Positions 1-29,796 of a stretch of DNA of 64,000 nt are shown here, piece by piece (positions within the stretch are counted from its first letter, which is position 1; every line of letters starts with the position of its first letter). The stretch is from Spirochaetales bacterium (GTDB lineage: Bacteria > Spirochaetota > Spirochaetia > SZUA-6 > RPPD01): positions 96,300 to 160,299 of the forward strand of contig JAFGJO010000042.1 of assembly GCA_016929065.1 (NCBI GenBank), in the 5' to 3' direction. The translations under genes were made by a program, and so were the position numbers. The notes beneath the pieces were generated by a model. The model worked only from the letters and a program-made list of their open reading frames with translations, did no database searches and had not been told where the DNA came from.

Positions 1-187
1 CTGACCCAGAGAAGACATCAAATATACAAAGCTTTCGTTTGGCTAATGAACCCTGAATACGTTCAAGTCCGGACTGAATAAACTGCAGTAATGCCCGTTT
101 GTTCCCGATGCAGGTTATCAGTTGGTTTGAAAGATAATCAGCATTCTCCATTAGTGATGGAGATTCTTTAATCAGATTGTGTTTCAT
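1..187 (-). CDS. N-terminal fragment (62 aa) of a D12-class (Dam / T4-Dam-like) N6-adenine DNA methyltransferase; the gene runs off the left edge of the window
   Basis: ATG at 187-185 with an open frame to position 1 and no stop. The protein begins MKHNLIKESPSLMENADYLSNQLITCIGNKRALLQFIQSGLERIQGSLAKRKLCIFDVFSGS. 'ITCIGNKRALL' matches the Dam N-terminal motif (T4 Dam 'IAYTGNKQSLL', E. coli Dam 'WAGGKYPLL'). About 20 aa later 'IFDVFSGS' matches MTase motif I FxGxG (T4 Dam 'FVDLFCGG'). Confidence 0.55.
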   Translation of the reverse strand, partial: MKHNLIKESPSLMENADYLSNQLITCIGNKRALLQFIQSGLERIQGSLAKRKLCIFDVFSGS

Positions 188-360
188 GTTCAATATCAAT
201 TTCCTCGCTCACAGTGTAGTGATAAATGGAATTTCCGGCAAGTAATCGGTAAACCGGGGACAGAGGAACATACGAATATATTTCATGTTAAAGTAAAAAC
301 TGAAAAAAACTCGGACTTCTGGTAAAGTAAAAAAAAGGACCCTCCACGACAGATTTACTA

Positions 361-1344
361 TTAATAAGACTCTGGCAATCGCATTGAATACAGCTCCGTC
401 CCCTCAAAATTGCCTGATTCGGTAAAACATTCCTGAATGGACTGACGGCAATGGGTATACATATTTTTTGAAACATACATATTCCCGGGGTGTGCGTATT
501 TCTGGCCGATATGCGCCAAAGAGTTTACTGCATCTGAAATTATCCGCCCTGTTTTGCCCCGTTCACGATAAACTGTGCTGCCTGGATAAAGAACAATCCG
601 GTAGGAAAGCAACAGTTTTTGTTCAGAATTATCGACGCTGATTATCCGGCGCGACAGCATCAACCGCATACACGTTACGATTACCTCTGTTGGATTTTCA
701 TTATACGGAAAAAGAACAATACCGCCGAAATCATTCCATATCCACAATCTCCCATTTTGTTGCGACACATATGACTCAACCGTTCGCTGGAAATTGTGTA
801 AAAGCCGATCGATGGTTGATTCACGGACCCGATTTCCGAAATTCCGCGAGCCATCAAGTTCAATATACATCATGGTAAAAAGATACTCCGTCCCTGTCTG
901 GACATTTTTCCAATCACTTGCTTTCTTTACCAGGGAGGTTATTAATTGATTTTTACTGTTTCCCGCTTCCTGATCTGAAAAATCAACATTCTGCCTGCAC
1001 AATATTTCATTAAACCTCTTTAATTCCATTGGCTGCCGGCATAACTGCGGCCCCAAATAATCGTGCAATCCAGACGAAAACAATAATGCTGGATCACTGA
1101 TCGCCTGTTTATGATCTATGATTCCGACAAAATACTTTTTTTTATCACTCACTCTCAAAATTGACCTGATTTCCTTCTGTGAAAAAAAAGTAATATCAAA
1201 ATAATAAAAAACAGTCGCGTTATTCTGCCGGATAATTTTACTTGTCATCTCTACTGAACAGTAATTCAAGGTAAATTTGCTGCAACTATGCAATTTCTCG
1301 AATATTTTCTTTACATTTCGGTCTGAAAAAACAAATATTCTCAC
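361..1344 (-). CDS. Class III adenylyl/guanylyl-cyclase-homology-domain protein (paralog B). C-terminal cyclase-like domain of about 170 aa; N-terminal domain of about 160 aa of unknown function
   Basis: 'LFTMMYIELDGSRNFG' aligns to the metal-binding 'ILFxDIVGFT' motif. 'NGRLWIWNDFGGIVLFP' aligns to 'KIKTIGDAYMA'. 'LSYRIVLYPGSTVYRERG...GRIISDAVNSLAHIGQKYAHPGNMYVS' aligns to the 'GLHxGxV..GxxVNxAARL..A.PGxIxVS' C-terminal motifs. The start lies 3 nt after the stop of the upstream paralog. Confidence 0.5.
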   Translation of the reverse strand: MRIFVFSDRNVKKIFEKLHSCSKFTLNYCSVEMTSKIIRQNNATVFYYFDITFFSQKEIRSILRVSDKKKYFVGIIDHKQAISDPALLFSSGLHDYLGPQLCRQPMELKRFNEILCRQNVDFSDQEAGNSKNQLITSLVKKASDWKNVQTGTEYLFTMMYIELDGSRNFGNRVRESTIDRLLHNFQRTVESYVSQQNGRLWIWNDFGGIVLFPYNENPTEVIVTCMRLMLSRRIISVDNSEQKLLLSYRIVLYPGSTVYRERGKTGRIISDAVNSLAHIGQKYAHPGNMYVSKNMYTHCRQSIQECFTESGNFEGTELYSMRLPESY

Positions 1345-1347
1345 CTG

Positions 1348-2268
1348 TTACTCCAGATTGACTTTATAATTATACAAAGCATAAATATGCCGTTCCTTGC
1401 AGAGGGAGAATAAATCAGCGATTCTACGATCAAGACACACAAATACCTTATTGGAAACAGTAACTGAGTTTGGCTGTGTGAATTTTGATTCAATATCTGA
1501 TATTTCCTTTATTGTGTCATTTTTTTTAAGAGATTCAGTATTCAAGCTAAAAACATGCCTGCCAGAATGGATTGCAAATCTTACTTCCAACGGAGTTGAT
1601 ATTTCACGAGCAATTCTATTATAGAAAAACAAGTCATGTAGAATCTCGACAGCGCACATCGTCGCCTGTAGATCTTTGCGCGAAAAACAGAATGCCGCCA
1701 ATCCTCCGTCCCCTTGCGTTGTCCAGAGTCGTCCATTTCGTCGTTCAAGCGCCGTATTTACCATGGAAAACAAATCATGATACGTTTTCTCAATTTTTTT
1801 CCTTGAATTATTTCTTACCAGTTTTGAATTGCCACAAATATCGAATCGCAAAAAGGTCATTTCATATTCAATACCTTCCCGTAAAACACCCCAGTTAACA
1901 CTTTTATGAATCCTTGAATCTTCAACGAACATGCTGTTTTCGCTGTCAAAAATATATCCATGAATCTGAAGCCCCTGAATAATTCTTGAAAGATATGCAA
2001 TGGGATATTTTCTTCCCCTGAATCCCCGATTTTGTGCGCAAATCAACAACTGGACAAAGTCAGGAAACAATTGAGCATTACAAATATCTTCAATTATTTG
2101 TTTGGCGGCATTTGCACTTGGTATGGAGATGCTCTCTCGTGATCCAAACTGTTTATGGAGGTCATATCCCGGCAACATTTCCTGAATCAGCTGAACCATC
2201 AGTTTCACTGTCATTGATTCACAAAGAGCTTTTCCCGCAAGATTTCTTAAATGCGTTTTAATAACCAT
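1348..2268 (-). CDS. Class III adenylyl/guanylyl-cyclase-homology-domain protein (paralog A). N-terminal domain of about 135 aa is uncharacterised
   Basis: 'TFLRFDICGNSKL' matches the first metal-binding Asp motif. 'NGRLWTTQGDGGLAAFCF' matches the second Asp motif (KTIGDxxMAxF). 'ATMCAVEILHDL', 'EVRFAIHSGRHVF' and 'TIKEISDIESKFTQPNSVTVSNKVFVCL' follow the canonical class III order. Confidence 0.55.
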   Translation of the reverse strand: MVIKTHLRNLAGKALCESMTVKLMVQLIQEMLPGYDLHKQFGSRESISIPSANAAKQIIEDICNAQLFPDFVQLLICAQNRGFRGRKYPIAYLSRIIQGLQIHGYIFDSENSMFVEDSRIHKSVNWGVLREGIEYEMTFLRFDICGNSKLVRNNSRKKIEKTYHDLFSMVNTALERRNGRLWTTQGDGGLAAFCFSRKDLQATMCAVEILHDLFFYNRIAREISTPLEVRFAIHSGRHVFSLNTESLKKNDTIKEISDIESKFTQPNSVTVSNKVFVCLDRRIADLFSLCKERHIYALYNYKVNLE

Positions 2269-2467
2269 TTTGTATCACCAGGAGAGTATGCATATTGAAA
2301 TTACTTTAATGAAAATTGCCCAATTGGTGAAGAGGGGGACGAAGAATTGTTTTTTTTCTTATGTATTCAATTTTCTTATAAAAAAGACTTATTTTTTCTT
2401 TCATTCAGCGTTAAAATATAAATTATGAAATTGGACTATATAACAAATTCAAAAAAAGGAGCTTACA

Positions 2468-3454
2468 ATGGAATACAGGTTACTCGGAAAAACCGGATTA
2501 AACATCTCGGAAGTTTCACTCGGGACATGGCAGGTAGGAGGAACATGGGGAACCAGCTTCAATGAAATAAATGCAAAAAAAATACTGCATGCTGCCATCG
2601 ATAAAGGCATTAATTTTATTGACACTGCAGATGTTTATGGCAATGGCCTGAGTGAAAAAATGACAGGTGAGGTTATTAAAACCAGAAGTGAAAATGTTTA
2701 TATTGCGACAAAATGCGGAAGAAAAATATCACCCCACACCAGTGCCGGGTACACACCAAAAGCTTTGCAAAAATATGTGGAGGACAGCCTGAAAAATATG
2801 AAAATTGAATGTATAGATCTTATTCAATTGCATTGCCCTCCAACTGAGGTATATTATCGCCCGGAGATTTTTGAGCTGTTCGATCGGTTAAGGGAGGAAG
2901 GAAAAATAAAACATCTTGGGGTAAGTGTTGAAAAAATTGAAGAAGCAATTAAAGCAATTGATTACCCGAATGTCTCTACCGTGCAGATCATTTTCAATAT
3001 GTTTCGGCACCGCCCGAAAGAGCTTTTTTTCAAGCTCGCAAAGGAAAAAAATATTGGAATAATAGCCAGGGTTCCTCTCGCAAGCGGTTTGTTATCGGGA
3101 AAAATAACTCCTGAAACCAAATTTGATGAAAAAGATCATCGTATGTTTAACAGGGACGGAGGATCATTCGATAAAGGCGAGACATTCTCAGGAGTTGATT
3201 TAGCGGATGGTTTCAAAGCGGTGAAGGAATTACAAAAAATATTCCCTGACAATGCAACTCTGGCTCAATGGGCGATTAAATGGATACTGATGTTTCCAGA
3301 AATTAGTTGTGTCATTCCCGGAGCTTCCAGACAAGAACAGGTGATCTCGAACGTGCATGCAAGCACACTTTCTGCCATTCCAGAGAAGATCATGATCCAG
3401 GTAAATAGTATCTATGATTTATTAATCAGGAAATCTGTTCACCAGAGATGGTAA
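2468..3454 (+). CDS. Aldo/keto reductase family oxidoreductase
   Basis: N-terminus 'MEYRLLGKTGLNISEVSLGTWQVGG.WG' and 'IDTADVYGNGLSE' are AKR hallmarks. RBS AAAGGAG lies 6 nt before the ATG. Confidence 0.85.
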   Translation: MEYRLLGKTGLNISEVSLGTWQVGGTWGTSFNEINAKKILHAAIDKGINFIDTADVYGNGLSEKMTGEVIKTRSENVYIATKCGRKISPHTSAGYTPKALQKYVEDSLKNMKIECIDLIQLHCPPTEVYYRPEIFELFDRLREEGKIKHLGVSVEKIEEAIKAIDYPNVSTVQIIFNMFRHRPKELFFKLAKEKNIGIIARVPLASGLLSGKITPETKFDEKDHRMFNRDGGSFDKGETFSGVDLADGFKAVKELQKIFPDNATLAQWAIKWILMFPEISCVIPGASRQEQVISNVHASTLSAIPEKIMIQVNSIYDLLIRKSVHQRW

Positions 3455-3550
3455 TTTTTACTATTCACTTAATCTGGTGTTTAACCATTTACGGGTAACA
3501 TTTCGATGAATTGACGAATATCACTGATTATTTTAAGCCTTGATCTACCG

Positions 3551-3579
3551 TTGACAGGATAGAAAACTATCAGTATTTT
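3551..3579 (+). promoter_or_regulatory. Candidate sigma70 promoter for gltBD (TTGACA, 17 bp spacer, TATTTT), leaving a 5' leader of about 255 nt
   Basis: TTGACA at 3551-3556, spacer ggatagaaaactatcag, TATTTT at 3574-3579. Confidence 0.35.
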
Positions 3580-3840
3580 ATTAAAACAACCAGGACACTC
3601 ACGTGGAGCTTTATGGTATTTCTTTACTTTTTTGTAAAAATACGGTAAAACTCCAATTGGTGCCTGGAAAAGAACAAACTTTTTACTGAAAGCATCAATT
3701 ACTCAACGCGCTGGAGCTTGTTGGGTTTCCCGTCAATGGCAAGACATCTCTTGTGGAGCAATTAAATGGAGATACAGTCAAACAGGTGAGGTATGCCTGT
3801 GGAGTATGAATTCTATTAATATGCAAGGAGCAAGCAGCAT

Positions 3841-6800
3841 ATGAGGAAGGCCGAAGGGCTCTATGATCCCCAATACGAACATGATGCCTGCGGTGTTGGC
3901 TTTGTTGTCAATATCAAGGGACAGAAAAACCATCAGATTGTCACCGATGGGATTACGATTTTAAAAAACCTCGTCCACCGCGGAGCTATCGGCGGAGACG
4001 GGAAAACAGGAGACGGCGCGGGAATTCTGATCCAGATACCGCACGATTTTTTTGTTGACAGCACACTCCGGCTCAAAATAAAGCTCCCCAAAGCCGGTTC
4101 CTACGGTGTGGGCATGCTGTTTTTACCACAGGAAAAAGCTGAACAGGACAAATTAAAGAAAATAATAGCTGACAAGGTAGCGGCCAAAGGCGGTGTTGTA
4201 CTGGGCTTTCGGGAAGTACCCACCGACAGTTCCTGCCTGGGTGAAATCGCCCTTTCTTCCATGCCTTCGGTATGGCAGGTTTTTATTTCATTCGATGAAA
4301 TGAAAGACGCTGAACTGGAACGCAAACTGTATATTGTCCGCAGGTCAATAGAAAACGCTGCAGCGAAAAAAAAGTATTCGATAGAAGATTTTTATATCTC
4401 ATCGCTTTCCTGCCGCACAATTGTCTATAAAGGCATGCTCGATTCTCCGCAGCTGGACCTGTTTTTTCCCGATCTCATCAATCCGCAGATGAGCAGTGCC
4501 ATTGCAGTGGTGCATGCGCGCTACAGTACGAATACATTCCCGTCGTGGCCTCTTGCACAGCCGTTCCACCTCCTTGCCCATAACGGCGAAATCAATACAC
4601 TCCGCGGAAATGTCAATAAAATGAATGCCCGTGAATCCTCTCTCGAGTCTGAAGTATTTGGAAAAGAAATCAAGGAGCTGTTCCCTGTTATCACCCCCGG
4701 GTTAAGCGATTCCGGCCAGCTCGACAATGTATTCGAGCTGTTGTGGCAGAGCGGCCGGTCAATCGAACACTCGATGATGATGCTTATTCCCGAAGCATTC
4801 GGCCAGAAATACCATATCAGCCAGGACAAGCGCTCATTTTTCGAATACCATTCCGCAATACTGGAACCGTGGGACGGTCCTGCAGCGGTTGCCTTTACTG
4901 ACGGTTTGAAAGTGGCGGCGATCCTTGACCGGAACGGCCTTCGGCCCGCCCGCTATATCGCGACAAAAAGCGGCAAGTTTATTCTTGCCAGTGAAGTCGG
5001 CGTGCTTGACATCCCCAATGAGGATATCCTGGCAAAGGGACGGCTCGCCCCCGGAAAAATGATTCTGGTAGACACCGAAAAAGGGCGCATCATCTATGAC
5101 AACGAAATCAAGGCGACCATTTCACGGCAAAAACCGTACCGCAGATGGCTCGAGCAGAACCGGATAGAATTAAAGGGGCTTTTTCAGGCACCCGGCCCGG
5201 TTGAAACCGAACTCGTATCCCTGCGGACCCGCCAGAAAATATTCGGCTACTCATTAGAAGATATCAACATGATCATCGGCCCGCAGGCGGTCAATTCCCA
5301 GGAACCAGTTAACTCGATGGGGAATGACGCAAGCCTCGCGGTACTCTCTGACCGGCCGGTACTGCTGTACAATTATTTCAAACAGCTCTTCGCTCAGGTG
5401 ACCAACCCGCCGATTGACCCTTACCGGGAAAATCTGGTAATGAGCCTGATGAGCTTTGTGGGAAAAGAGCACAATCTCCTGGAGGAGACGCCGCAGCATT
5501 GTCACCGGCTCAAGCTTCCCTTCCCCATTTTATCAAACGATGACATGGAAAAACTGAGAAACGTCAATGTGGATGGATTAAAAGCTTCGGTTGTTCCGAT
5601 GTTCTTTATCGCCTCGGAGAATCCTGGCGAAGCACTGGAAAAACGGCTGACAGAAATTGTCGCACTTGCAGAACGCCGCATTGATGACGGCACCTCTCTG
5701 ATTGTGTTGTCAGACCGTTTTGTCGATGACACGCACATCCCCATACCGGCGCTACTTGCCGTATCTGCCCTGCATCATCATTTGATTCGTGCGGGCAAAC
5801 GTCATCTGGCAGGCATTGTTGTGGAATCCGGCGAAGTGCGTGAAGTCATGCATTTCGCCACACTCATCGGTTTTGGCGCGAGTGCAGTAAACCCGTATCT
5901 TGCCTTTGAGACCATTGCCGATCTTAAAAAGAACAATACCCTCCCTGTCGACCTCAAACTTGATGAGGCCTGCGACAATTATATTACCGCAATTAAAAAG
6001 GGATTGCTGAAAATCATGTCAAAAATGGGAGTCTCGACTATCCGGTCATATGCCGGCGCCCAGATTTTTGAAATTGTCGGCATCAACTCAAAAATTGTCG
6101 AGAGCTATTTTCCCGGAACCCCTTCGCGGATTGAAGGCATCGACATGGATATCATCGCCCGGGAAGCATTCCAGCGGCATGCTGCCGCCATGGCAGAGAC
6201 CAAAACTTCAAACCTGAATCTTGCATCCGGCGGCGATATACATTATCGTTCGCACTCCCTCAAACATACCATCACCCCGGAAGCAGTCATGATGGTGCAG
6301 AAGGCGGTACGCACCAACGACTACGCTGTGTATAAACAATATTCTGCAATCGCGAATGATGCTTCAAAAAACCTCTGCACGCTGCGCGGGCTGTTTACGT
6401 TTAAAAAAGGAAAGCCCGTACCGATAGAAGACGTTGAGCCGGTCGAGTCGATTGTCAAACGCTTTTATTCATCGGCAATGTCATTCGGATCAATCAGCAA
6501 GGAAGCACATGAAACCATGGCAATCGCCATGAACCGTTTGGGGGCGGGAAGCAACAGCGGCGAAGGTGGTGAAGACGAAATCCGCTACACACCTCTTGAA
6601 AACGGCGACAGCAAAAAAAGCAAGGTCAAACAGGTTGCATCCGGCCGCTTCGGTGTCACCTCAAACTATCTTGTAAACTCTGAAGAACTCCAGATCAAGA
6701 TGGCACAGGGAGCAAAACCCGGCGAAGGGGGACAGCTTCCCGGCCACAAGGTCAATGACATTATCGCGAAGGTCCGGCATTCAACACCCGGGGTCATGCT

Positions 6801-18462: not shown

Positions 18463-21400
18463 CTATAAAATCCGCGCCCGTATCCCAAAGCTGAGAGACA
18501 GGTTTGTTCCGCCTTCAACTGCCGACGAGATAAACCACAGCTCAAGCTGCGTGTAGAATCCGAAGTTGTTGAATGCGCCCCAGTTCTCAATCGTAAAATT
18601 GGCGAATTCAAACTGAACAAGAGCTGCGCCAAATATCAATCCGTCTTCGCTGAATGCTATCTCTTCACCTGAATTCGTGAAATACGAGAATGCCGCACCC
18701 ACGCCGAGGGACATGGAAAAGAATTCCCAGTCAGGGCCAAGGAACGATGCGAACGGAAGCTTGAATACATTTGCAATAAGACGAGCGCCCAGGACTAGTC
18801 CGTTCGGCCATTTTTCCGCACCGGTAAACATATCTGTGTTTGGAGTGTAGCCTGCCTCAAACTGCAGTTTTACATTCTGGTCAAAGAAGGTGAGTCCCAG
18901 ACCCAGATGAAAGAGTGTCGCACCGGTCCCCTGCAGATCAATATACATTCCCTGAATAAACTCGGGGATGGAGTATCCGCTCTTGTCGCCCTTACGCAGG
19001 TTAACCGAAATATCAGCGAGCCGGTTTTCATCGGAAGCGATTCCCACAATCCGGATCTTGTCATTAAACCGTTGATTCTCCTCGGGGCCAAGGAGGTTCA
19101 CAAACGGCGGCTTGTCGTCGTTCAGATACATTGTTTTGGTAATTACCTGTTTTTCTCCCACGGTTGCACGCATGATAATGCGGACATTGCCGTCGGGGAT
19201 ATCCTGGGTCTGGAGCCGGTAGCGCCATTGGTCGGTCCCGTTCACCTCATGAAAGCTTTTGCCGTTATTGAGGCTGATCTCGACTTTCTGCACACGGTTT
19301 TTATTGAGCGTTTTTTCATATTTCTCAAACTCTTCCTTTTGTTCGCGGTCTACCGCATCAAGGAAAAATCCTGCCTCACCTTCGAGCCATGGACGCCGCG
19401 CCACAAAATCTCCGGTATGGAAATTGTTAATTCTCACCCATCCGCCCACACGGGTATAAATGATTTTTTGTTTTCCAGATTTGATCACACTGCCGTCGGC
19501 GCTGGTCGTTGCCAGTTCCAGATCATGTTCGCCGTCTCCAAGGTCTTCGGGACCCATATCAAGGTAAAAGTACCCGTATTCGGAAATGTCCGCCTGCTTT
19601 TTCTTTGCACCATCCACCAGCAGGTCTACGGTTTTTACCGGATATTCCGACATCACCTTACCGCTGATCGTAAAGAAGCCGGCGACATTTTCGCCCTCTA
19701 CAGGAAAAACCTGTTCCATTGTGTTCACAATTGTTTTTTCTTTTATCACGATATTGCGCGTAATATAGACAATATTGTTTGCCTTGTCGCGCGCCTCGAT
19801 GCGCAGATTATACCACCCGGGTTTCAGGCTGGTGACGTCGATCTGACGGGAAAACACACCGGAAAGCGGCAGTTCCACGGGTTTTGCGAGCGCTGAACTG
19901 CCGGTCTTGAATCCCGCTCCGCCGCTGATGGGCGATACCTCAAAGGTGAGAGCTGACAATACAATGTTGTCGAACGCACGGCCGTCAAGAAGCATTTTCT
20001 CTGTATACTCCTGCCCGTCCTTCGGAAAATCAAGGGAGAGGGTCGGCGGTGTATTGTCAATATTGAGCATTGTCGCAAAGAGCCCCTCGGTTGAGGTCTT
20101 GTCGACTGCTTTCACAAGGATTCGGTGAATCCCGTCTGAAAGCAGATGTGTATTCAATGGAAATGTCCATTTCTCCGCGCCGAATCCTTTCTGGAAGCTG
20201 TTGCCATTGTCAAAACTGAAATACACTTCCTTGATTCCGTTCGCGTCGCTCGAGTTCCCTGCCAGGGTAATGGTTCCGCGCGTGGTTACCGATACTTGTG
20301 GGGATTCAAGCGTTGAAATCGGTTCTGCCTTGGAGATGAATATCTTGCGTTTGATTACATCGCCTTTAAATCCGCTGATATCCTCGGCCTGCACTTCAAT
20401 GGTATGTTCGTTGTCAGTAATTTCATCAAGCTTTACGGGAACGCGGAAACTGTTTCCACCCTCGAGTTTCTGAAACTCGCCGTTGTCAAGCCTGAAGTAT
20501 ATCGCACCCACACCGTCATCGTCGAAAACCATGCCCGAGATGACAAAGTCGTTCCTCAGAACTTCTTCTTCTTCCGGAATCTGGATTTCGGCGACCGGTT
20601 TGTCGGCCTCATAATTGATATTGAATACCGGATTGGTCACCGCATTGTTGCCTGCCATGTCCGTTACTCTGAAATAAAATTTCTCGGGAAGTTTTTTGTA
20701 TTTTGTCAAATCAAGATTGTAGGCAAGGAATCTGCCGCCCTCGATCGGTGTATATGTTTTTCCATCATCGGAAAACTCGATAGTTTTGATCCTGCCCTCA
20801 TCGGCAATATCCGCCATAACGCTGAAGATACCGTTTACCGGAACCCCTTCTTGCGGAGTAATAAGGGTAAACGCCGCGTTGGCAGTATCTTTTTTCAGCG
20901 GAATCACTTTTACAGTGCTTTTGCCGCTGTTGTCGGTTGCCTTCACAAACAGGGGAAATGTTCCGTCTGCGATCGCCTCAAGAGAAATTGTCTCGGAAAA
21001 AGTCACACCCTCTGTGCTCTTTTTTACGGTCATCGGCTTGTAGGTACCTTCCGCGTTCAGGGCATATTCAACCGCGGCGATGCCGATCTTGTCGTTTGCC
21101 GTTCCCTCGATTTTCACCGAGTTTTTGTACCATTCCTCGGCCACCGGTGTGGTTAACGTGAGTTCAGGCTCCCCTGCATCGGAAATGAACTGTAATTTTT
21201 TAACAAAGGTCTTGCCATTGGTTTTCTTCACCACAATTTCAACCGCCTGGCTTAATCCCTCGCCGGTTGCAGTAATGGTGATCTTCCGGCCGTCTGCCGA
21301 TGCCTGCAGAAATCCCGTTGCCGGTTTTATCTCGACGCTTGCAACAGTGTACCCGTTGAAAAATCCGATTAAGGGTTTTTCCGGTGCAATATATGCTTTG

Positions 21401-23862
21401 TTGTCAGCGGTTATCCTTGAATCGATAAAATACAGATCCTCGGCAGTGTTGAGCACCGTCTTGCCGGGATCATCAATTTTGTAAAAAAAATCAGAATAAT
21501 ACCCGGTCTGTTTTGTCTTGTTGGTAAACCGGACAGTAAACTCGTTTTTACCGTAGGGAAGTTCCTTGGGCAGGGCAATACTGATCGCCGCAAGCGGCTG
21601 ATTGTTGTTTCGTTTGACATCAATCCCCTTGTATTCCTTGCCGCCATTAAAGCTCACTTCTGCTCGATCGATGGTTTGCTCGACTGTTCCTTCCAGCCGC
21701 ATGGTTCCGTCGCTTGCAGCAAGCTGCACCCCGGAAAAATAGTCAACCGTCGCGGTTTTCGAAACTGCTTTAAGGATTGCTGCAGAATACACATCTGCGG
21801 AGGGTGAGTTCACTGTTGTCACACTAACCGGTTCGGAAGTTACTGTTTCCCCGCCGACGGTTTTTATACTGATCCGCACGGTTCCTTCAACGCCGGTCTG
21901 GGACGGGGTGATAATAACCCGTTTCCCCTGGGCCGATGCCGACAGAAACGGGGTATTCGGTTCAAGCGATACCGATGCGATATCCTCCCCGGAATAATAA
22001 GCGGTAAGCGGAGAATCGGATGCAATCTCTACCTGATCATTCGCATTCTTGCGTGCCAAAGCAAGCGACAGTGCTGGTTTTTCGTATATCCCGGTATAAT
22101 TGTTGACATACACAAACGTGGTAAAGGAAAAAGACCGGTCATATTTGTCTGTGGCGTTAATTGTAATGGGAACAACACCATACGGGATGTCCGGCGAAAG
22201 AGCTATTTCAAACTCGCGCCAAAACTTTTCGGTCATTGTTTTCAAGGTGATCGGTTTGGGGGCAATCCCCTCAGTCTCCCACGTCGCTTTGGCAAAACCG
22301 CCGTAATCGCGGATGAGCCCGGTGAGTTTTGCATTGCCGGCCTTGTCCACTGCTATTCCAGGATAAAAGGGAGCTGAAGATTTACCGCTCACCAGATCCT
22401 GCATGACCAGTTCTGTATTGCCGCCCGTAGAGGTAAAATCAACAGTCACCGGAAGTCCTTTTGTACCGTACATGTCTGTTGCAGTAACGGTGATTTTGTG
22501 CTTTCCCGCAGCAAGTTCGTCAAGAATGAGGGAAAATCCTTCCTTTGCCTCGACCGTTGTGCTTTCTTTTCCATCGATGGAATAGGTAATTTCTTTTGCA
22601 CCGTCCGCATCGGTAACGAATCCGTAGACAGGCAGCCTTCCAGAGATCACTGCATCTGCAAACGGCGACAACAGCTGAACCACCGGCTTGTCAGCTTCTC
22701 GGTCGATTTTTACCGGAACCCGCAGTACTTCCTTGTTGCCGGTGCTGTCTTCCAGGGTAAACGTAACTGTTTCCTCGGCAGATGCCAGCCCCGAAAAATC
22801 AAAGTTCTGTTTCCAGTAAATGTTTCCGGGAACGAGTTCAATCTCCCCTGTTTTATCTTTCCATTCCCAGGTCAGACCCTTTAACCCGATTTCGTCCCGC
22901 GCCGTCCCCACAACCGCAACCTGCGAAAGGTTTTTCGCATCGGGAAGCGGAGAGACAATTTCCAAAGCCGGTTTCTTGTTGTCGACAAAGAACAGAAACG
23001 CAGCATAGCCCACAGAACCGGTATTGTCCGTACTTTTAAACCAGAACACCTGCGGTCCGTCCTCGAGCCGGTTCGTGTCGATATCAAGCTTGAAAACATA
23101 TTGACTTTCTTCCTGTTTGTATTCCATGCCCAGCTGCTTGTAGGTTTCCCCGCGGTCTTCACTGTAAAAAAGCGAGACAATCCCGTTTAAATCCCGGACA
23201 TTTGCCTCCAGTTTTGCATTGCCGTGCAGGAGCACGCCGCTTTGGGCATTGGTAAACTCAAACAGCGGTTTTGCCGTATCGATCTGAAACTTGCGGGAGA
23301 CTTCATTACCCACAGCACCGTTTATATCAATACCGCGTACGGTGATCGTGTGTACCCCGTCGGTATAGCCTTCTGTTTTAAAATTGTACGACCAGAAATC
23401 CTTTCCCTGTGCGGGAGCGTATTCTCCCTCATCGATTTTTACTTCCACCTTGGCAACCGCGTCGTCGTCCGCGCACACCCCCACAATGTTGAGGCTTGAG
23501 CCGCCGACACGCATCATGTTCACCGGGTTGGTAATATCTACCACCGGCAAATCCGAATCCGGATCAATTAAAATATTGACCGGGCCTTCAAAATAGACAT
23601 TGCCTGCCTTGTCAGTACCTTTTATAATGATATTATATGTTCCCTTTTCAAGGCCGGATACATCAAAGGTATAGTCCCAGTTTTCAAGGCCGTTTGCCTT
23701 TTTGTAGGAATTAAGAAAAGGCTCAGGAGTGGGTTTTGGCGTTGCAACCACAGGAGTTTCTTCCCCGGCCGAAACAGGAGTTTCTTCCTGGGCAAAGACA
23801 ACCATCCCGGTTGTCCCCAAAAAGAGTATGAACATCAACGCAAACAGTCTCATTTTAAACAT
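18463..23862 (-). CDS. Giant secreted surface protein 1 (about 1800 aa). Signal peptide, more than 12 tandem Ig-like beta-sandwich modules, and a C-terminal amphipathic beta-strand (putative outer-membrane barrel) region
   Basis: Signal peptide 'MRLFALMFILFLGTTGMVVFA/QEE'. Module motif [LIV]xGxAxDxxGhxxhxhxxDxGxxY recurs, for example 'IVGVCADDDAVAKVEVKID', 'VSGTARDEIGLKGLTWEW', 'VYGFVTDADGAKEITYSIDGK', 'IEGTANDKIGIAAVEYAL', 'ISGMVFDDDGVGAIYFRLDNG', 'LAGNSSDANGIKEVYFSFDNG', 'IVGIASDENRLADISVNL'. The last 170 aa have alternating hydrophobic strands ending in '...LSLSFGIRARIL'. The ORF could start at 23910. Confidence 0.6.
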   Translation of the reverse strand: MFKMRLFALMFILFLGTTGMVVFAQEETPVSAGEETPVVATPKPTPEPFLNSYKKANGLENWDYTFDVSGLEKGTYNIIIKGTDKAGNVYFEGPVNILIDPDSDLPVVDITNPVNMMRVGGSSLNIVGVCADDDAVAKVEVKIDEGEYAPAQGKDFWSYNFKTEGYTDGVHTITVRGIDINGAVGNEVSRKFQIDTAKPLFEFTNAQSGVLLHGNAKLEANVRDLNGIVSLFYSEDRGETYKQLGMEYKQEESQYVFKLDIDTNRLEDGPQVFWFKSTDNTGSVGYAAFLFFVDNKKPALEIVSPLPDAKNLSQVAVVGTARDEIGLKGLTWEWKDKTGEIELVPGNIYWKQNFDFSGLASAEETVTFTLEDSTGNKEVLRVPVKIDREADKPVVQLLSPFADAVISGRLPVYGFVTDADGAKEITYSIDGKESTTVEAKEGFSLILDELAAGKHKITVTATDMYGTKGLPVTVDFTSTGGNTELVMQDLVSGKSSAPFYPGIAVDKAGNAKLTGLIRDYGGFAKATWETEGIAPKPITLKTMTEKFWREFEIALSPDIPYGVVPITINATDKYDRSFSFTTFVYVNNYTGIYEKPALSLALARKNANDQVEIASDSPLTAYYSGEDIASVSLEPNTPFLSASAQGKRVIITPSQTGVEGTVRISIKTVGGETVTSEPVSVTTVNSPSADVYSAAILKAVSKTATVDYFSGVQLAASDGTMRLEGTVEQTIDRAEVSFNGGKEYKGIDVKRNNNQPLAAISIALPKELPYGKNEFTVRFTNKTKQTGYYSDFFYKIDDPGKTVLNTAEDLYFIDSRITADNKAYIAPEKPLIGFFNGYTVASVEIKPATGFLQASADGRKITITATGEGLSQAVEIVVKKTNGKTFVKKLQFISDAGEPELTLTTPVAEEWYKNSVKIEGTANDKIGIAAVEYALNAEGTYKPMTVKKSTEGVTFSETISLEAIADGTFPLFVKATDNSGKSTVKVIPLKKDTANAAFTLITPQEGVPVNGIFSVMADIADEGRIKTIEFSDDGKTYTPIEGGRFLAYNLDLTKYKKLPEKFYFRVTDMAGNNAVTNPVFNINYEADKPVAEIQIPEEEEVLRNDFVISGMVFDDDGVGAIYFRLDNGEFQKLEGGNSFRVPVKLDEITDNEHTIEVQAEDISGFKGDVIKRKIFISKAEPISTLESPQVSVTTRGTITLAGNSSDANGIKEVYFSFDNGNSFQKGFGAEKWTFPLNTHLLSDGIHRILVKAVDKTSTEGLFATMLNIDNTPPTLSLDFPKDGQEYTEKMLLDGRAFDNIVLSALTFEVSPISGGAGFKTGSSALAKPVELPLSGVFSRQIDVTSLKPGWYNLRIEARDKANNIVYITRNIVIKEKTIVNTMEQVFPVEGENVAGFFTISGKVMSEYPVKTVDLLVDGAKKKQADISEYGYFYLDMGPEDLGDGEHDLELATTSADGSVIKSGKQKIIYTRVGGWVRINNFHTGDFVARRPWLEGEAGFFLDAVDREQKEEFEKYEKTLNKNRVQKVEISLNNGKSFHEVNGTDQWRYRLQTQDIPDGNVRIIMRATVGEKQVITKTMYLNDDKPPFVNLLGPEENQRFNDKIRIVGIASDENRLADISVNLRKGDKSGYSIPEFIQGMYIDLQGTGATLFHLGLGLTFFDQNVKLQFEAGYTPNTDMFTGAEKWPNGLVLGARLIANVFKLPFASFLGPDWEFFSMSLGVGAAFSYFTNSGEEIAFSEDGLIFGAALVQFEFANFTIENWGAFNNFGFYTQLELWFISSAVEGGTNLSLSFGIRARIL

Positions 23863-23923
23863 CGTTTTTCCTCCTTGATTCACCGTTGGCCGTAAGCTCC
23901 GGTGTTTCACACCAAAACCATAG

Positions 23924-23973
23924 TTTGCCGTTTTCTCTCCGTGTTCTGTGCAGAACGGCCATAAAACGGCAAA
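23924..23973. promoter_or_regulatory. Inverted repeat TTTGCCGTTTT-N28-AAAACGGCAAA upstream of giant protein 1. Same AAACGGCAA half-site as at gdhA and livK
   Basis: tagTTTGCCGTTTTctctccgtgttctgtgcagaacggccatAAAACGGCAAAg. Confidence 0.4.
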
Positions 23974-24002
23974 GAAAAAGCTCTCTCCCCTCAGGGAGAG
24001 AG
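23971..24002 (-). terminator. Intrinsic terminator after giant surface protein 2
   Basis: Minus-strand RNA CUCUCUCCC-ugag-GGGAGAGAG followed by CUUUUUCUUU. It starts 13 nt after the stop at 24015. Confidence 0.75.
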
Positions 24003-24014
24003 TATCAATTTGTA

Positions 24015-27000
24015 TTATTCTTCGGGCTTGAGCTGGACGATATCAAACGCATCACCCTTGTATCCAACCGACACTGTCCAATCCACCGAACCCTTTGCAT
24101 ACTCAATACTGGTCCGGTTTTCTGAAATAGGAGTGGACAGAGGTGCATTAATATATTCCCAGCTTGAACGGGTTGTATCCCAATAAGCTACCTTGAGTCC
24201 ATTAAAGGTTCCAATCATTGAACTGTTCAGGTATGAAATATACGGAGTTGTCCCGTTCAGGGTAATGTCCGCCCAGGCACCCACAGCTCCTTCGCTGTCA
24301 ATCACTGTGCTGGCCGCAAACACGTAATTGTCATTGGAAAAGTCCGGGCCGCTCGGATCAATATCAGGCGCGGTAATATATACCAGATCGCCGGTCGAGA
24401 TCCGATAACAGGCAAGATACAGTCTTCCAGTAGTATCAAAATCTATAGTGACATGCTGGCCGATATAGAATCTGTTGGGATCACTTGTCCCGACAAAAAC
24501 AGTCTGGCGGTACCAGTCTGACGGCGATGCCGGCGCGGTGCTTGTCGCCCGTGCAAGTTTTATTGTCTGTGCTGCGATGTCATAGTAAGCAATTACCGGA
24601 TATCCCTGTTCATCGACATCAATCGTCACATATGAACCTGCCGAGGTACTTCTCGTTGCCCCCTGCGAAACAAGATTGCTCGTTGCTGTAATGATTGTAT
24701 AACTGGTATAAGTAGTATCAATGGTCGTATCAAAATCCACACGTCCAGTGCCGCTGGTAAATGCAGTAATGAGTGCTGTCCCGTAATTTCCCAAATTATT
24801 ATGAAGCTGAATTGTCTGACCGGCAGCAATCATGGTGTTCCCTATAAGTGCGGTATCGGTAACCCGGGTATTTGCCCTTGTGCCTACACCGGTTAAATGG
24901 ATCACGTCGTCACCATCAGACCCGCCGTCAATATTTATCCAGTTCATCTCCCCGGTTGACGTACTGCCATTCAGCGCATATCCGTATTTTACGGCATTGG
25001 TGTTGAGATCGTAATAGGCAATATGAATGTTATTCCCGGTTCGTACAACCTTCGGCCTCTGGAACTGCAAAAGCATGGTATCGTGATACAGCATCTCGAA
25101 CCGGTAAAAATAGTTCCAGGGATAAGCGCCACCGCGCTGAACCTGCTGCGGAGCGCTCGTATTGTAGACACTCACCGCTCCTGCCGAGTCGATATCCGGC
25201 GACCACCCCGATCCGCCGTAGTAATTTCCAAGGTAAACAACAGAAATGTTATCCGAACTGTCAAGATGAATATCACTGTATTCAGCGGGGTCATACATCT
25301 GGAATATCGGCGTTGCCGATGCTGTGGTCCCATAGAACACGGACGCTGCTGTTGTGTAGTCGGTCCATGATCCATACAGGGTTCCGTCCGAGGCGATGCT
25401 CATTGCCGGGTATTGAGCATTTGTACTTGAATCGAATGAAAGCCCGGTTCTCCAGACTGACAAATATCGGTCGTCATTCCACAAAGTCTCGTCGATGCCG
25501 CTTCCGTCATCTTCCTTGTTGTACACAAGCAGATCGCTATTCACTGTATTGACGGCTTCGATATTATTTACCATAACCCGGAGCCACCCTGAATGAGTTA
25601 CTGCGTTCAAATTTGTCAACGTCAGCTGGGTAAACGTCCCATTTGCCGTCACATCCGCATTTGCAATCTGGTCATATTCCAGGGTTCCTGTTGCGCCGTC
25701 GCCGATTTCACGGTCCCAGACGCGGACCCAGGAATTGGTTCCGTATGTTCCTGTTTTCGCCAGATTGTACCCATTGATTGCCAGCCCGGTTTCACCTGTC
25801 TGGACCGAGTATTTCCCATATTTGGAACGGGTTGTCGCTTCCGCACCGAGCGAACGCAGTATCCCCGAAATATACGGAACGACATCGTGATCACGGCTTT
25901 CGAAACTGTTGTTCGGGGTAAAGTCAATCGCACGCACCAAAACTGTTATATTGTCGCCGGTCCGGTTGGTGACATTCGCGGTATTCCAGACATATGTCCA
26001 GTCAAAGTCATGCCCGCCGGATTCCGTCAAGGTGACATTGCTGATCGTCAGGTTGCCGAAAGTCCCGCCGGTATACGTCTGCGGCCAGGTTGCCAGTGCA
26101 ACCTCGGTACCGTCGCCGGAACCCAGATCAAAGTTGTCAATCGCCATATTGAAGTACCGGATTCTCTGGTTGTCATGCATATGCCCTTTCAGCGTAATCG
26201 TTCCGCTGACATCCGGATCGGTCCCGTCATAAAGGCTGTCTCCGTCATGTTCGATATGACCGCCGGTGACAGGATCGGATGTCCGGTCGGACTGTGAAAG
26301 GTCGTCCAGCGTCACCTCCGGTGCATCGCCGTCATCATTATCGATCACCACATCAATGGTTTCATCGACATAAATACCATCCGCGTCGGTCACCCGTATC
26401 AGGAAGGTCGTCGGACCTTCGCTGTATCCGCTAATGTCGATGTCGCCTGCAGCAGCCGAAAGCACCAGGGCACCTGCAGCATCCGGATGATACACACGGT
26501 AATCGGATAATGTATCATTGTCTGTTGCGGTGACGCTGATATAAAGCAGATTTCGGCCGGTAATTCCATAGGCGTCATCATAGACGAACCGTTCGTTGGC
26601 ATCATCGGTTGAATCATCAAAATCAAGATCCGTTCCCACAGTAAGCCCGGTAATCTGGGGTTTGTTGTTTTTGATGAATCCCGTCTGTTCATTATGTCGG
26701 CCATTGCCTCCCTTGTCGAAGGTGACATAATGGATGGTTAACGGACCATCGGGAATATTTGATGAATCAAACTGTGCCCACCAGTTGTAATCAGAACCGG
26801 AAAGCGTGAGGGATTCATCATACCCGTCTCCATCTCCATTCCCGGAGCCGTCATTTCCCAGCTCGGTTGTTTTATCGATGGTGATCACATAATCCGTTTT
26901 TTCACCTGGATCCATATAAGGCACATCACCGTTTCCATCGTCAAAATCATTTAAGGTTGCCGTTGTGGTGCCCGCGCCATTCGGACTGTACAACGTGTAG

Positions 27001-29678: not shown

Positions 29679-29796
29679 CGAGGGCCCCCTCAAAAGATCA
29701 AATTTCACCTATTTTATTATCGTCGGTTTTTTCCGCGACGATACAAATTTCCTTCCGTGATAGACATTTTATTATTATTTGACTTTTTAGAGTTCC

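What the first reader, a model, noticed from the sequence alone, without database searches (positions are those of the whole stretch)
361..2268. Two tandem divergent class III nucleotidyl-cyclase-like paralogs with unknown N-terminal domains
Both adjacent same-strand genes (306 and 327 aa, start to stop gap of 3 nt) carry the ordered class III cyclase motifs. These are the FxDIxG metal site, the xxGDGxxAxF second metal site, and the arginine-containing C-terminal motifs. The metal-binding Asp residues are present in both. Each has a different, unrecognisable N-terminal extension of 135 to 160 aa. The two share only about 30% identity. They sit divergent from housekeeping genes and directly upstream of a Dam-family methyltransferase fragment. 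That context suggests an accessory or defence island rather than cAMP signalling. The architecture resembles Pycsar-type cyclase systems (cNMP-producing cyclases coupled to effectors). However, no TIR, TM or CAP-type effector is visible inside the window, and the paired-paralog arrangement is not the described one. Possibilities are a heterodimeric cyclase, a cyclase plus pseudo-cyclase sensor, or novel effector N-domains.
Basis: partly seen in the sequence, partly recalled or inferred. Interest (0 to 1): 0.62.

Follow-up and report, generated by a model that had tools for sequence, protein, structure and literature searches.

The report
Split two-gene spirochaete nucleotide cyclase
Two adjacent spirochaete genes encode diverged cyclic-nucleotide-cyclase domains that each keep only half of the catalytic residues, so they probably work only as a heterodimer, an arrangement known from mammalian cyclases but not described for bacterial ones, and they show no sign of being a phage-defence system.

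Summary
The two minus-strand genes are real: A is 2268..1348 (306 aa) and B is 1344..361 (327 aa, GTG start), 3 nt apart. Both end in a class III cyclase-homology domain (CHD), shown by profile and fold evidence but missed by Pfam thresholds.

Three details of the finding are wrong:
- The CHDs are 19% identical, not 30%.
- Only A has both canonical metal-binding Asp residues.
- B's N-terminus is a receiver-like (REC) domain, not an unrecognisable one.

A is followed directly by B in 80 of 81 loci, all from Spirochaetota MAGs. No other neighbour is conserved, no effector is present, and the Dam-type methylase occurs only in this genome.

The catalytic residues are split between the two proteins:
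- A keeps Asp143, Asp187 and Arg230 in 80/80 species but lacks the Asn/Arg pair.
- B keeps Asn274 and His278 in 74/74 but has degenerate metal positions.
- A solo sister family (118 members) carries all five residues in one chain.

Best reading (confidence about 0.6): an obligate A/B heterodimer with one composite active site. It arose by duplication and subfunctionalisation, is possibly controlled through B's receiver domain, and makes an unidentified cyclic nucleotide. The Pycsar or defence reading is not supported. This is a new variant of a known kind; interest about 0.55.

The parts
1348..2268 (-). Gene A (306 aa): family-specific N-terminal domain plus class III cyclase-homology domain. 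This is the 'C1-like' subunit that keeps the metal and phosphate residues.
1894..2268 (-). A N-terminal domain (aa 1-125): five helices, then a helix and a beta-hairpin. Function unknown. It is shared only with the solo spirochaete cyclase family.
   Evidence: No PDB or Pfam match. phmmer against 1.84 billion representatives gives 66 hits, all 326 aa or shorter and of the same architecture. It aligns with the N-terminus of the solo family.
1351..1881 (-). A cyclase-homology domain (aa about 130-306). Key codons: D143 at 1840-1842, D187 (in GDGG) at 1708-1710, R230 at 1579-1581. The Asn and Arg positions are K254 (1507-1509) and D258 (1495-1497).
   Evidence: D143, G186-L190 and R230 are invariant in 80/80 species. 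Position 254 is K56/R8/N7 and position 258 is mostly E/D. Aligned to 3mr7. Codon coordinates verified.
1351..1354 (-). GGAG Shine-Dalgarno site for gene B, inside the last codons of A, 6 nt upstream of the GTG start. It indicates translational coupling.
   Evidence: Sequence. The A-B gap is -26..+5 nt in 70/80 loci.
361..1344 (-). Gene B (327 aa, GTG start): receiver-like domain, disordered linker, then a degenerate cyclase-homology domain. This is the 'C2-like' subunit that keeps Asn and His.
   Evidence: ORF. Homologs of 322-363 aa cover 100% of the long form. AF2 pLDDT 84.9, and 91 over residues 1-30. The public annotation starts at an internal ATG and gives 295 aa.
991..1344 (-). B receiver-like (REC) domain (aa 1-118). 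D50 (1195-1197) sits at the phospho-acceptor position. D77 replaces the conserved Thr/Ser. P99 replaces the conserved Lys in this genome.
   Evidence: PDB profile hits to PhoP, CpxR and YycF receivers, E 0.014-0.06, with D50 aligned to the acceptor Asp. AF2 shows a (beta-alpha)5 topology. Full-length Foldseek matches to the REC-GGDEF proteins PleD and DgcR. D50 is 80/80, D77 is 79/80, and position 99 is K39/R12 of 80.
928..990 (-). B inter-domain linker (aa 119-139), predicted disordered and variable in length.
   Evidence: pLDDT below 50 for residues 119-136. Large length variation in the family alignment.
364..927 (-). B cyclase-homology domain (aa 140-327). Conserved codons: N274 at 523-525, H278 at 511-513, T265 at 550-552. 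Degenerate metal and phosphate positions: E162, D164, D205/F206 and R249.
   Evidence: N274, H278 and T265 are 74/74. E162 and D164 are each 71/76. Position 206 is mainly F/Y. R249 is 54/74. Aligned to Ma1120 and 3mr7. hhalign against A.
2269..2467 (.). Divergent intergenic region between gene A and the aldo-keto reductase gene. It presumably holds the promoter of the A-B operon, but none was identified.
   Evidence: The consensus scan gave no more sites than shuffled sequence. No Rfam match.
1..187 (-). 5' end of a D12-class (Dam-like) DNA methyltransferase gene. It is not part of the system and is unique to this genome.
   Evidence: Translation. It is 366 aa with PF02086 in contig L001. It has no homolog next to the pair in the other 80 loci.

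Best explanation
Genes A and B encode the two subunits of an obligate heterodimeric class III nucleotidyl cyclase. Class III cyclase domains act as head-to-tail dimers whose active sites lie at the interface. One subunit gives the two metal-binding Asp and a phosphate-binding Arg. The other gives the transition-state Asn/Arg pair and the base-contacting residues (established knowledge; PMC2576301).

Here A supplies Asp143, Asp187 and Arg230. B supplies Asn274 and His278, the lineage's replacement for the Arg, plus the base pocket. That leaves one competent composite site and one degenerate pseudo-site, as in mammalian adenylyl cyclase C1/C2 or soluble guanylyl cyclase alpha/beta.

The pair arose inside Spirochaetota by duplication of a homodimer-type enzyme (N-domain plus CHD with all five residues), followed by complementary loss. 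B swapped the ancestral N-domain for a receiver-like domain. Output is therefore probably tuned by phosphorylation or another input at Asp50 of B, and by whatever the conserved N-domain of A senses.

The product is a cyclic nucleotide of unknown base, because the canonical Lys/Asp or Glu/Cys specificity pairs are absent. The role is ordinary chromosomal second-messenger signalling, not phage defence.

Shown here: the fold, the adjacency, the residue partition and the phyletic pattern. Inferred: physical heterodimerisation, catalysis, the product and REC control.
For: 1. Both proteins have the class III fold.
2. A is immediately followed by B on the same strand in 80/81 loci from different Spirochaetota species. 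The one exception is cut by a contig end. The gap is -26..+5 nt in 70/80.
3. The residues are partitioned in a complementary way.
   - A: D143, GDGGL and R230 are 80/80, with K/R at the Asn position and E/D at the Arg position.
   - B: N274, H278 and T265 are 74/74. Metal position 1 is Glu in 71/76. Metal position 2 is mainly Phe/Tyr. The phosphate Arg is present in only 54/74.
4. The solo sister family has D, GDGG, R and N in 118/118 and H in 117/118, all in one chain. It shares A's N-domain, and the one member whose neighbourhood was examined (L085) has no B-like neighbour.
5. A distant pair (28% identity, Leptospiraceae) shows the same split. A' keeps D, D and R. B' is REC plus a CHD that keeps N...H but has lost Asp1 and Arg.
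6. A natural in-frame A/B hybrid gene joins A up to GDGGL with B from that point on. It restores all five residues in one 304-aa chain at the syntenic position.
7. Pairwise divergence of A and B is correlated across 73 species, r = 0.85.
8. [quoted passage not shown]
Against: - No direct test of heterodimerisation was possible.
- No enzymatic data exist for any member, including the solo family.
- The transition-state Arg is His throughout the lineage and the base-specifying residues are non-canonical, so catalysis and product are uncertain.
- B still keeps semi-conserved acidic residues (E162 and D164 at 93% each, D/E205 at 81%), so its site may not be fully dead.
- Correlated divergence and adjacency are expected for any co-inherited operon.
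- The receiver domain lacks the conserved Thr (it has Asp77) and, in this genome, the conserved Lys (it has Pro99). It may therefore be a pseudo-receiver.
Confidence: 0.6

Rival explanations
1. The pair is a non-catalytic pseudo-cyclase complex. The A and B CHDs bind a nucleotide or each other and act as a regulatory or scaffolding module, for example a REC-controlled switch, without making a second messenger.
Against: Both metal Asp, the GDGG loop and the phosphate Arg of A are invariant in 80/80 species, and Asn/His/Thr of B in 74/74. The same five residues are invariant in 118 solo homologs. This is the pattern expected under selection for catalysis. Pure binding modules usually lose the metal Asp residues.
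Confidence: 0.17
2. There are two independent homodimers. A is a weak but self-sufficient cyclase, as Rv1900c tolerates non-canonical residues. B is a separate REC-regulated degenerate cyclase or an inhibitor. They share an operon only for co-regulation.
For: Bacterial class III cyclases are described as homodimers (PMC9552081). From memory (Sinha et al. 2005, EMBO J, not re-read here), Rv1900c remains active although the canonical Lys and Asn are replaced.
Against: The losses are reciprocal rather than random. What A lacks (Asn, His) is invariant in B, and what B lacks is invariant in A. The split recurs in a pair only 28% identical. A natural hybrid recombines exactly the two conserved halves. 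An A homodimer would have K254/D258 facing the substrate at both sites.
Confidence: 0.13
3. The pair is a Pycsar-like or other cyclic-nucleotide anti-phage system. The cyclase pair signals to an effector encoded elsewhere, or one of the N-terminal domains is a new effector.
For: Weak PADLOC PycC hits: A at E 4e-7 and 27.7 bits, B at E 3.5e-3. A neighbouring D12 methylase and a low-GC block of 36-41% against 47% for the window. PycC structures are among the fold neighbours.
Confidence: 0.04

Closest known systems
Mammalian membrane adenylyl cyclase C1/C2 catalytic core, and soluble guanylyl cyclase alpha/beta
   Different: The origin is independent. The nearest relatives are spirochaete solo cyclases, not eukaryotic enzymes. 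There are two separate polypeptides from a bacterial operon rather than one fused chain (tmAC). His replaces the transition-state Arg. The Lys/Asp or Glu/Cys base-specifying pairs are absent. The regulatory domains differ: REC plus a novel N-domain, rather than TM/helical or H-NOX/PAS domains.
Solo spirochaete 'N-domain + CHD' cyclases, e.g. P0293 of Sediminispirochaeta smaragdinae DSM 11293, Spirochaeta isovalerica and S. cellobiosiphila (annotated adenylate/guanylate cyclase, uncharacterised)
   Same: They have the same N-terminal domain and the same CHD lineage, including the hallmark 'TGxIVSExINxAAHLE' Asn...His motif and the WxGDGG loop.
   Different: The solo proteins carry all catalytic residues in one chain (118/118), and no B-type partner gene follows the one solo gene whose locus was examined. 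They are therefore expected to be homodimers with two sites. A has lost Asn and His and always has B downstream.
Canonical bacterial homodimeric class III cyclases (Ma1120, CyaC of Spirulina, Cya2, Rv1625c, Rv1900c)
   Different: In those enzymes both monomers participate equally and form two productive centres (PMC9552081). Here the residues are divided between two gene products.
Pycsar (PycC cyclase plus effector)
   Same: The cyclase component also has the class III fold. There are weak PycC HMM hits.
   Different: There is no effector gene, no defence-island context and no cross-phylum patchiness. There are two cyclase-like genes instead of one, and a receiver-domain input.
Response-regulator output-domain fusions such as REC-GGDEF (PleD, DgcR/WspR type)
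   Same: B has an N-terminal receiver-like domain followed by a palm-type nucleotide cyclase domain. Full-length Foldseek alignments of about 310 columns match PleD and DgcR.
   Different: The output domain is a class III CHD, not GGDEF. It appears catalytically incomplete on its own. The receiver lacks the conserved Thr and, in this genome, the conserved Lys.

Membership tests
Class III nucleotidyl cyclase (cyclase-homology domain, Pfam PF00211) | Cyclase-homology (beta-alpha-alpha-beta-beta-alpha-beta palm) fold | tested here: met
Class III nucleotidyl cyclase (cyclase-homology domain, Pfam PF00211) | Score above the Pfam gathering threshold for PF00211 | tested here: not met
   A scores 15.5 bits against a cutoff of 21.9. 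B gives no hit, and 0 of 24 B-family members hit any Pfam model. Several solo sister proteins do pass.
Class III nucleotidyl cyclase (cyclase-homology domain, Pfam PF00211) | Two metal-binding Asp residues (beta1 and the beta2-beta3 loop) | tested here: met
   Met in A only: D143 and D187 are 80/80. Not met in B: Glu162 and Phe206 occupy the aligned positions.
Class III nucleotidyl cyclase (cyclase-homology domain, Pfam PF00211) | Transition-state Asn and Arg on helix alpha4 (VNxAxR motif) | tested here: not met
   A has K254 and D258. B has N274 (74/74) but His278 (74/74) in place of Arg. The solo family also has N...H.
Class III nucleotidyl cyclase (cyclase-homology domain, Pfam PF00211) | Base-specifying pair (Lys/Asp for ATP, Glu/Cys-type for GTP) | tested here: not met
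   In B, the Lys position is Met/Ile202, and the Asp position (Asn minus 7) is variable: T/E/N/R267. In A, the Lys position is N/S/T183.
Class III nucleotidyl cyclase (cyclase-homology domain, Pfam PF00211) | Converts NTP to 3',5'-cNMP plus PPi | not testable with these tools
   Needs an enzyme assay.
Heterodimeric class III cyclases (functional type: tmAC C1/C2, sGC alpha/beta) | Two different CHDs with reciprocal loss of catalytic residues, giving one composite site | tested here: met
   Conservation tables over 74-80 species pairs. The same pattern occurs in the distant pair in L083. The complete set is present in the solo family.
Heterodimeric class III cyclases (functional type: tmAC C1/C2, sGC alpha/beta) | Physical head-to-tail heterodimer | not testable with these tools
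   No multimer prediction was available. Only obligate gene adjacency (80/81 loci) and correlated divergence are available, and these are indirect.
Heterodimeric class III cyclases (functional type: tmAC C1/C2, sGC alpha/beta) | Descent from the eukaryotic C1/C2 or alpha/beta lineages | tested here: not met
   The closest relatives of both A and B are spirochaete proteins. A shares its N-domain and CHD with the solo spirochaete family. This is an analogue, not a member.
Pycsar anti-phage system | PycC-type cyclase | tested here: inconclusive
Pycsar anti-phage system | Adjacent effector gene (cNMP-binding domain fused to TM, TIR or similar) | tested here: not met
   No conserved neighbour in 80 loci. 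The neighbours found are housekeeping genes. No cNMP-binding phosphate-binding-cassette motif was found in the 64-kb window by a crude regex.
Pycsar anti-phage system | Defence-island context and patchy, horizontally spread distribution | tested here: not met
   All 80 retrieved genome loci are Spirochaetota MAGs apart from one unclassified record. Synteny is lineage-specific and A/B divergence is correlated. The methylase is unique to this genome.
Pycsar anti-phage system | cCMP or cUMP product and phage protection | not testable with these tools
   Needs LC-MS and a phage challenge.
Response-regulator receiver domain (REC) - N-terminus of B | (beta-alpha)5 fold with the phospho-acceptor Asp at the end of beta3 | tested here: met
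   The AF2 model has strands 2-6, 25-29, 45-50, 71-76 and 95-97 alternating with helices. D50 is 80/80 and aligns to the acceptor Asp of PhoP and CpxR. Foldseek gives full-length matches to PleD and DgcR.
Response-regulator receiver domain (REC) - N-terminus of B | Remaining quintet residues: acidic pair after beta1, Thr/Ser after beta4, Lys after beta5 | tested here: not met
   After beta1: Ser7-Asp8, with D8 present in only 45/80. After beta4: Asp77 (79/80) instead of Thr/Ser. After beta5: Pro99 in this genome, though K/R in 51/80 species. Pfam PF00072 is hit by 0/24 members. It may be an atypical receiver or a pseudo-receiver.

The most novel reading that the evidence does not exclude
This would be the first natural bacterial obligate heterodimeric class III nucleotidyl cyclase. 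It is a two-gene, phylum-wide spirochaete enzyme in which duplication of a homodimeric ancestor was followed by reciprocal loss of catalytic residues. That independently replays the C1/C2 (or sGC alpha/beta) solution of animals. All the intermediates survive side by side: the solo complete form, the split pair, and a natural re-fused hybrid. A non-canonical Asn/His active site and base pocket could also mean a non-standard cyclic nucleotide product.
Probability: 0.5. Interest if true: 0.7.

Novelty: new variant of a known kind. Interest (0 to 1): 0.55.

Why it matters
Reviews of the field state that bacterial class III cyclases homodimerise, with both monomers contributing equally to two active centres. 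They place asymmetric, single-site dimers in eukaryotes (PMC9552081; PMC2576301).

A bacterial operon that encodes a C1-like and a C2-like subunit would show that this asymmetry evolved more than once. It would also offer a small, soluble, genetically separable model for three questions: why half-site enzymes become heterodimers, what pseudo-sites are used for, and how two different regulatory domains (a receiver and a novel N-domain) are integrated on one catalytic site.

The solo family, the split pairs and the natural hybrid form a ready-made series for testing subfunctionalisation.

The finding also flags about 100 or more spirochaete proteins, the B family, that no Pfam model recognises. 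Finally, it removes a false lead: this is not a new Pycsar-type defence system.

Tried and rejected
- **Pfam, NCBIfam and PADLOC on the two proteins.** These gave only sub-threshold or weak hits. Family profiles and structure prediction were needed.
- **Defence-island idea.** I clustered all ORFs within 7 kb of the pair in 80 loci. Nothing besides A-B is conserved in more than 21 loci, and the largest such cluster is generic histidine kinases. Rejected.
- **Methylase linkage.** The D12 methylase has no counterpart in any other locus. Rejected as part of the system.
- **N-domain of A.**
  - A profile search against PDB gave nothing at E up to 10.
  - Pfam gave only scattered single-member noise.
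  - A single-sequence search found only the same architecture.
- **Regulatory elements.** The promoter and terminator consensus scan gave nothing above shuffled expectation. Rfam gave no hit in 1-4000.
- **cNMP-binding proteins.** A regex for the cNMP-binding phosphate-binding cassette found nothing in the window's ORFs. This is a crude test.
- **Literature.** Searches for a described bacterial heterodimeric class III cyclase found none. The library is incomplete, so this is absence of evidence only. The Rv1900c paper could not be retrieved and is cited from memory only.
Full report
**1. What is in the sequence**

The minus strand of window 361-2268 carries two ORFs:
- A runs 2268..1348 (306 aa, ATG start).
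- B runs 1344..361 (327 aa, GTG start).

A's TAA stop and B's GTG start are separated by CAG. A GGAG lies 6 nt upstream of the GTG, inside A's last codons, so the two genes look translationally coupled.

The public annotation of the same contig starts B at an internal ATG and gives 295 aa. Two results support the long form. Homologs of 322-363 aa cover 100% of it, and the first 30 residues fold confidently as strand 1 and helix 1 of a domain.

The genome is an uncultured Spirochaetales MAG.
- Upstream and divergent lie an aldo-keto reductase, gltB and gltD.
- Downstream lies a 366-aa D12-class methyltransferase, whose first 62 codons are at window 187..1.
- Beyond that lie convergent phosphatase, aldolase, Band_7 and NfeD genes.

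**2. Are they class III cyclase domains?**

Yes, but only profiles and structures show it. Pfam gives A 15.5 bits against a gathering cutoff of 21.9 and gives B nothing. NCBIfam gives nothing. PADLOC PycC models give weak hits of 27.7 and 14.8 bits. None of 24 B-family members hits any Pfam model.

The stronger evidence is as follows:
- A 32-sequence profile of the A family hits the class III cyclase 3mr7 at E 7.7e-9 and Ma1120 at 3e-5.
- The B cyclase-domain profile hits 3mr7 at 2.4e-3.
- A and B profiles match each other with 99.6% probability, E 7e-24.
- The AF2 model of B (pLDDT 84.9) gives Foldseek E 3.4e-8 to Cya2 and target TM 0.77 to Ma1120.

**3.

- The two cyclase domains are 19% identical, not about 30%.
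- Only A has both canonical metal Asp residues.
- Neither protein has the canonical Asn/Arg helix motif.
- B's N-terminus is not unrecognisable.
  - Its profile weakly matches OmpR/PhoB-type receivers (E 0.014-0.06), with Asp50 on the phospho-acceptor Asp.
  - The model has (beta-alpha)5 topology.
  - The full-length model aligns over about 310 columns with the REC-GGDEF proteins PleD and DgcR.
- A's N-terminal 125 residues (five helices, then a helix and a hairpin) match nothing in PDB or Pfam. In a search of 1.84 billion representatives they occur only in proteins of 326 aa or fewer with the same architecture.

**4. Conservation of the pair**

A scan of one genome per species found 131 species with an A homolog. 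The 80 best are all Spirochaetota MAGs, apart from one record titled 'uncultured bacterium'.

In 80 of 81 loci, an A-type gene is followed directly on the same strand by a B-type gene. The exception ends at the contig edge. The gap is -26..+5 nt in 70 of 80.

I clustered all ORFs within 7 kb of the pair. No other gene family is present in more than 21 of 80 loci. The recurring neighbours are housekeeping genes with lineage-specific synteny: a PyrK-like protein, LigT, PBP1A, an isochorismatase, methylmalonyl-CoA mutase, an AddB-like protein and a fructokinase.

The methylase has no counterpart at any other locus.

Pairwise divergence of A and B is correlated across 73 species, r = 0.85.

The A/B region is the lowest-GC part of the window (about 38-40% against 47%). 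It shares this with the reductase, methylase and phosphatase genes. I give that little weight.

**5. The key result: the catalytic residues are divided between A and B**

I placed the positions using the alignments to 3mr7 and Ma1120 and the A/B profile alignment.

| Position | A | B |
|---|---|---|
| Metal Asp 1 | Asp143, 80/80 | Glu162, 71/76 (Asp164, two residues on, also 71/76) |
| Metal Asp 2 | Asp187 in an invariant GDGGL, 80/80 | mainly Phe/Tyr206; preceding residue is Asp in only 45/74 |
| Phosphate-binding Arg | Arg230, 80/80 | Arg249, 54/74 |
| Transition-state Asn | K56/R8/N7 of 80 | Asn274, 74/74 |
| Transition-state Arg | Glu/Asp | His278, 74/74 |

Thr265 of B is also invariant at 74/74.

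In class III cyclases, the Asp/Asp/Arg set and the Asn/Arg plus base-contact set of one active site come from opposite subunits. [quoted passage not shown] A therefore looks like a C1-type subunit and B like a C2-type subunit. An A-B dimer would have one complete site and one degenerate site. A-A and B-B dimers would have none.

**6. Evolutionary support**

- **A solo sister family.** Locus L066 carries, besides its A-B pair, a solo 315-aa paralog.
  - A search with it found at least 361 relatives, including proteins from cultured Sediminispirochaeta smaragdinae, Spirochaeta isovalerica and S. cellobiosiphila.
  - They share A's N-domain.
  - Among 118 full-length members, Asp, GDGG, Arg and Asn are 118/118 and His is 117/118, all in one chain.
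  - In S. smaragdinae no B-type gene follows the solo gene.
  - His at the 'Arg' position is therefore a hallmark of the lineage, not decay.
  - The A/B pair is best explained as a duplicate of such a homodimer-type enzyme followed by reciprocal loss.
- **A distant pair with the same split.** In a Leptospiraceae pair only 28% identical to A, A' keeps Asp, Asp and Arg but not Asn/His. The downstream 347-aa protein is REC plus a cyclase domain that keeps 'EALNLSAHL' (Asn...His) but has Gln at metal position 1 and Gln at the Arg position.
- **A natural hybrid.** In a relative of locus L010 (88% DNA identity in the flanks), a 969-nt in-frame deletion fuses A up to GDGGL with B from the equivalent point onward. 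The result is a 304-aa protein at the syntenic position that again has all five residues in one chain.

**7. Mechanism proposed**

Shown by the analyses here: the fold, operon coupling, residue partition and phyletic pattern.

Inferred:
- A and B form a head-to-tail heterodimer with one composite active site, built from A Asp143/Asp187/Arg230 and B Asn274/His278 plus B's base pocket.
- It cyclises an NTP.
- Its activity is set by B's receiver-like domain and A's N-domain.

The base cannot be predicted. In B, the Lys position is Met/Ile202 and the Asp position is variable (T/E/N/R267).

The receiver may be atypical. Asp50 is invariant, but Asp77 replaces the conserved Thr. The conserved Lys is Pro99 in this genome, although it is K/R in 51/80 species.

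B's semi-conserved Glu162/Asp164, together with A's Lys254, may form a regulatory pseudo-site. That is speculation.

**8. Comparison with known systems**

Functionally the closest analogues are mammalian AC C1/C2 and sGC alpha/beta. By descent the pair belongs to a spirochaete-specific branch of class III cyclases.

A 2022 review states that bacterial class III cyclases homodimerise, that both monomers contribute equally to two productive centres, and that a fused dimeric form is unknown in bacteria (PMC9552081). My literature searches found no described natural bacterial heterodimer. The library is incomplete, so this is not proof of absence.

From memory only: Sinha et al. 2005 (EMBO J) proposed from Rv1900c's asymmetric homodimer that heterodimeric cyclases evolved by duplication and loss of one site. 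This locus would be a bacterial instance of that path.

Pycsar membership fails on its defining effector gene and on genomic context.

**9. Rivals**

- A non-catalytic pseudo-cyclase complex (0.17) is countered by invariance of the full catalytic set across about 80 pairs and 118 solo proteins.
- Two independent homodimers (0.13) do not explain the reciprocal pattern, its recurrence in the distant pair, or the hybrid.
- A defence system (0.04) is disfavoured as described above.

The main weakness of the favoured model (0.6) is that heterodimerisation and catalysis are untested. Both structure-prediction jobs went to the monomers, and no multimer tool was available.

**10. Verdict**

This is a new variant of a known kind. 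It is of moderate interest to signalling enzymologists, mainly as a natural and experimentally tractable case of C1/C2-type asymmetry evolving in bacteria.

Noticed in passing
L082:4001-4915 (protein P0091); compare L010:10001-11884: A natural in-frame A/B hybrid gene. A 969-nt deletion relative to a relative with 88% identical DNA joins gene A up to the GDGGL loop to gene B from the equivalent point. The 304-aa protein has A's two Asp residues and B's Arg/Asn/His in one chain, at the syntenic position. It occurs on two contigs. An assembly artefact is not excluded, but it is unlikely given the low DNA similarity between A and B.
   Followed up: partly
L066:1590-2537; L085:5001-5921 (P0293, Sediminispirochaeta smaragdinae DSM 11293): A larger solo sister family (at least 361 hits, including cultured Spirochaeta and Sediminispirochaeta species) with the same N-domain and a cyclase domain that carries all catalytic residues. 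His sits at the canonical Arg position in 117/118 members. The family is uncharacterised and would be the natural experimental control.
   Followed up: partly
window 1-187 (minus strand); L001:10650-11750: A D12-class (Dam-like) DNA methyltransferase gene with no adjacent restriction gene. It is followed by convergent genes and is present next to the cyclase pair only in this genome. It is probably an orphan methylase or a recent insertion.
   Followed up: partly
window 1-3700: This is the lowest-GC block of the window: 36-40% against a 47% mean, with gltB at 51%. It spans the methylase start, B, A and the aldo-keto reductase. In L001 the methylase and phosphatase genes are also at 39-41%.
   Followed up: no
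L083:5001-8338: A distant (28% identity) Leptospiraceae version of the pair is followed by a third gene, a canonical membrane-anchored adenylyl cyclase with the full FSDIRGFT / KFIGD / GDAVNTAARIE motifs. Its B-type partner has Glu rather than Asp at the receiver's acceptor position (DIVLTE).
   Followed up: partly
L058 and L078 (both from assembly JBNKTL01): One MAG carries two separate A-B pairs on different contigs, so the pair itself can be duplicated. Contamination of the bin is an alternative explanation.
   Followed up: no
window 361-1344: The public annotation starts gene B at an internal ATG (295 aa), which removes strand 1 and helix 1 of the receiver-like domain. The GTG at 1344 with its GGAG site, full-length homologs and the AF2 model all support 327 aa.
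   Followed up: yes
window 18466-24042 and 24018-29708 (minus strand): Two adjacent very long ORFs (about 1,860 and 1,900 aa) were seen in the window's gene map. They were not examined.
   Followed up: no
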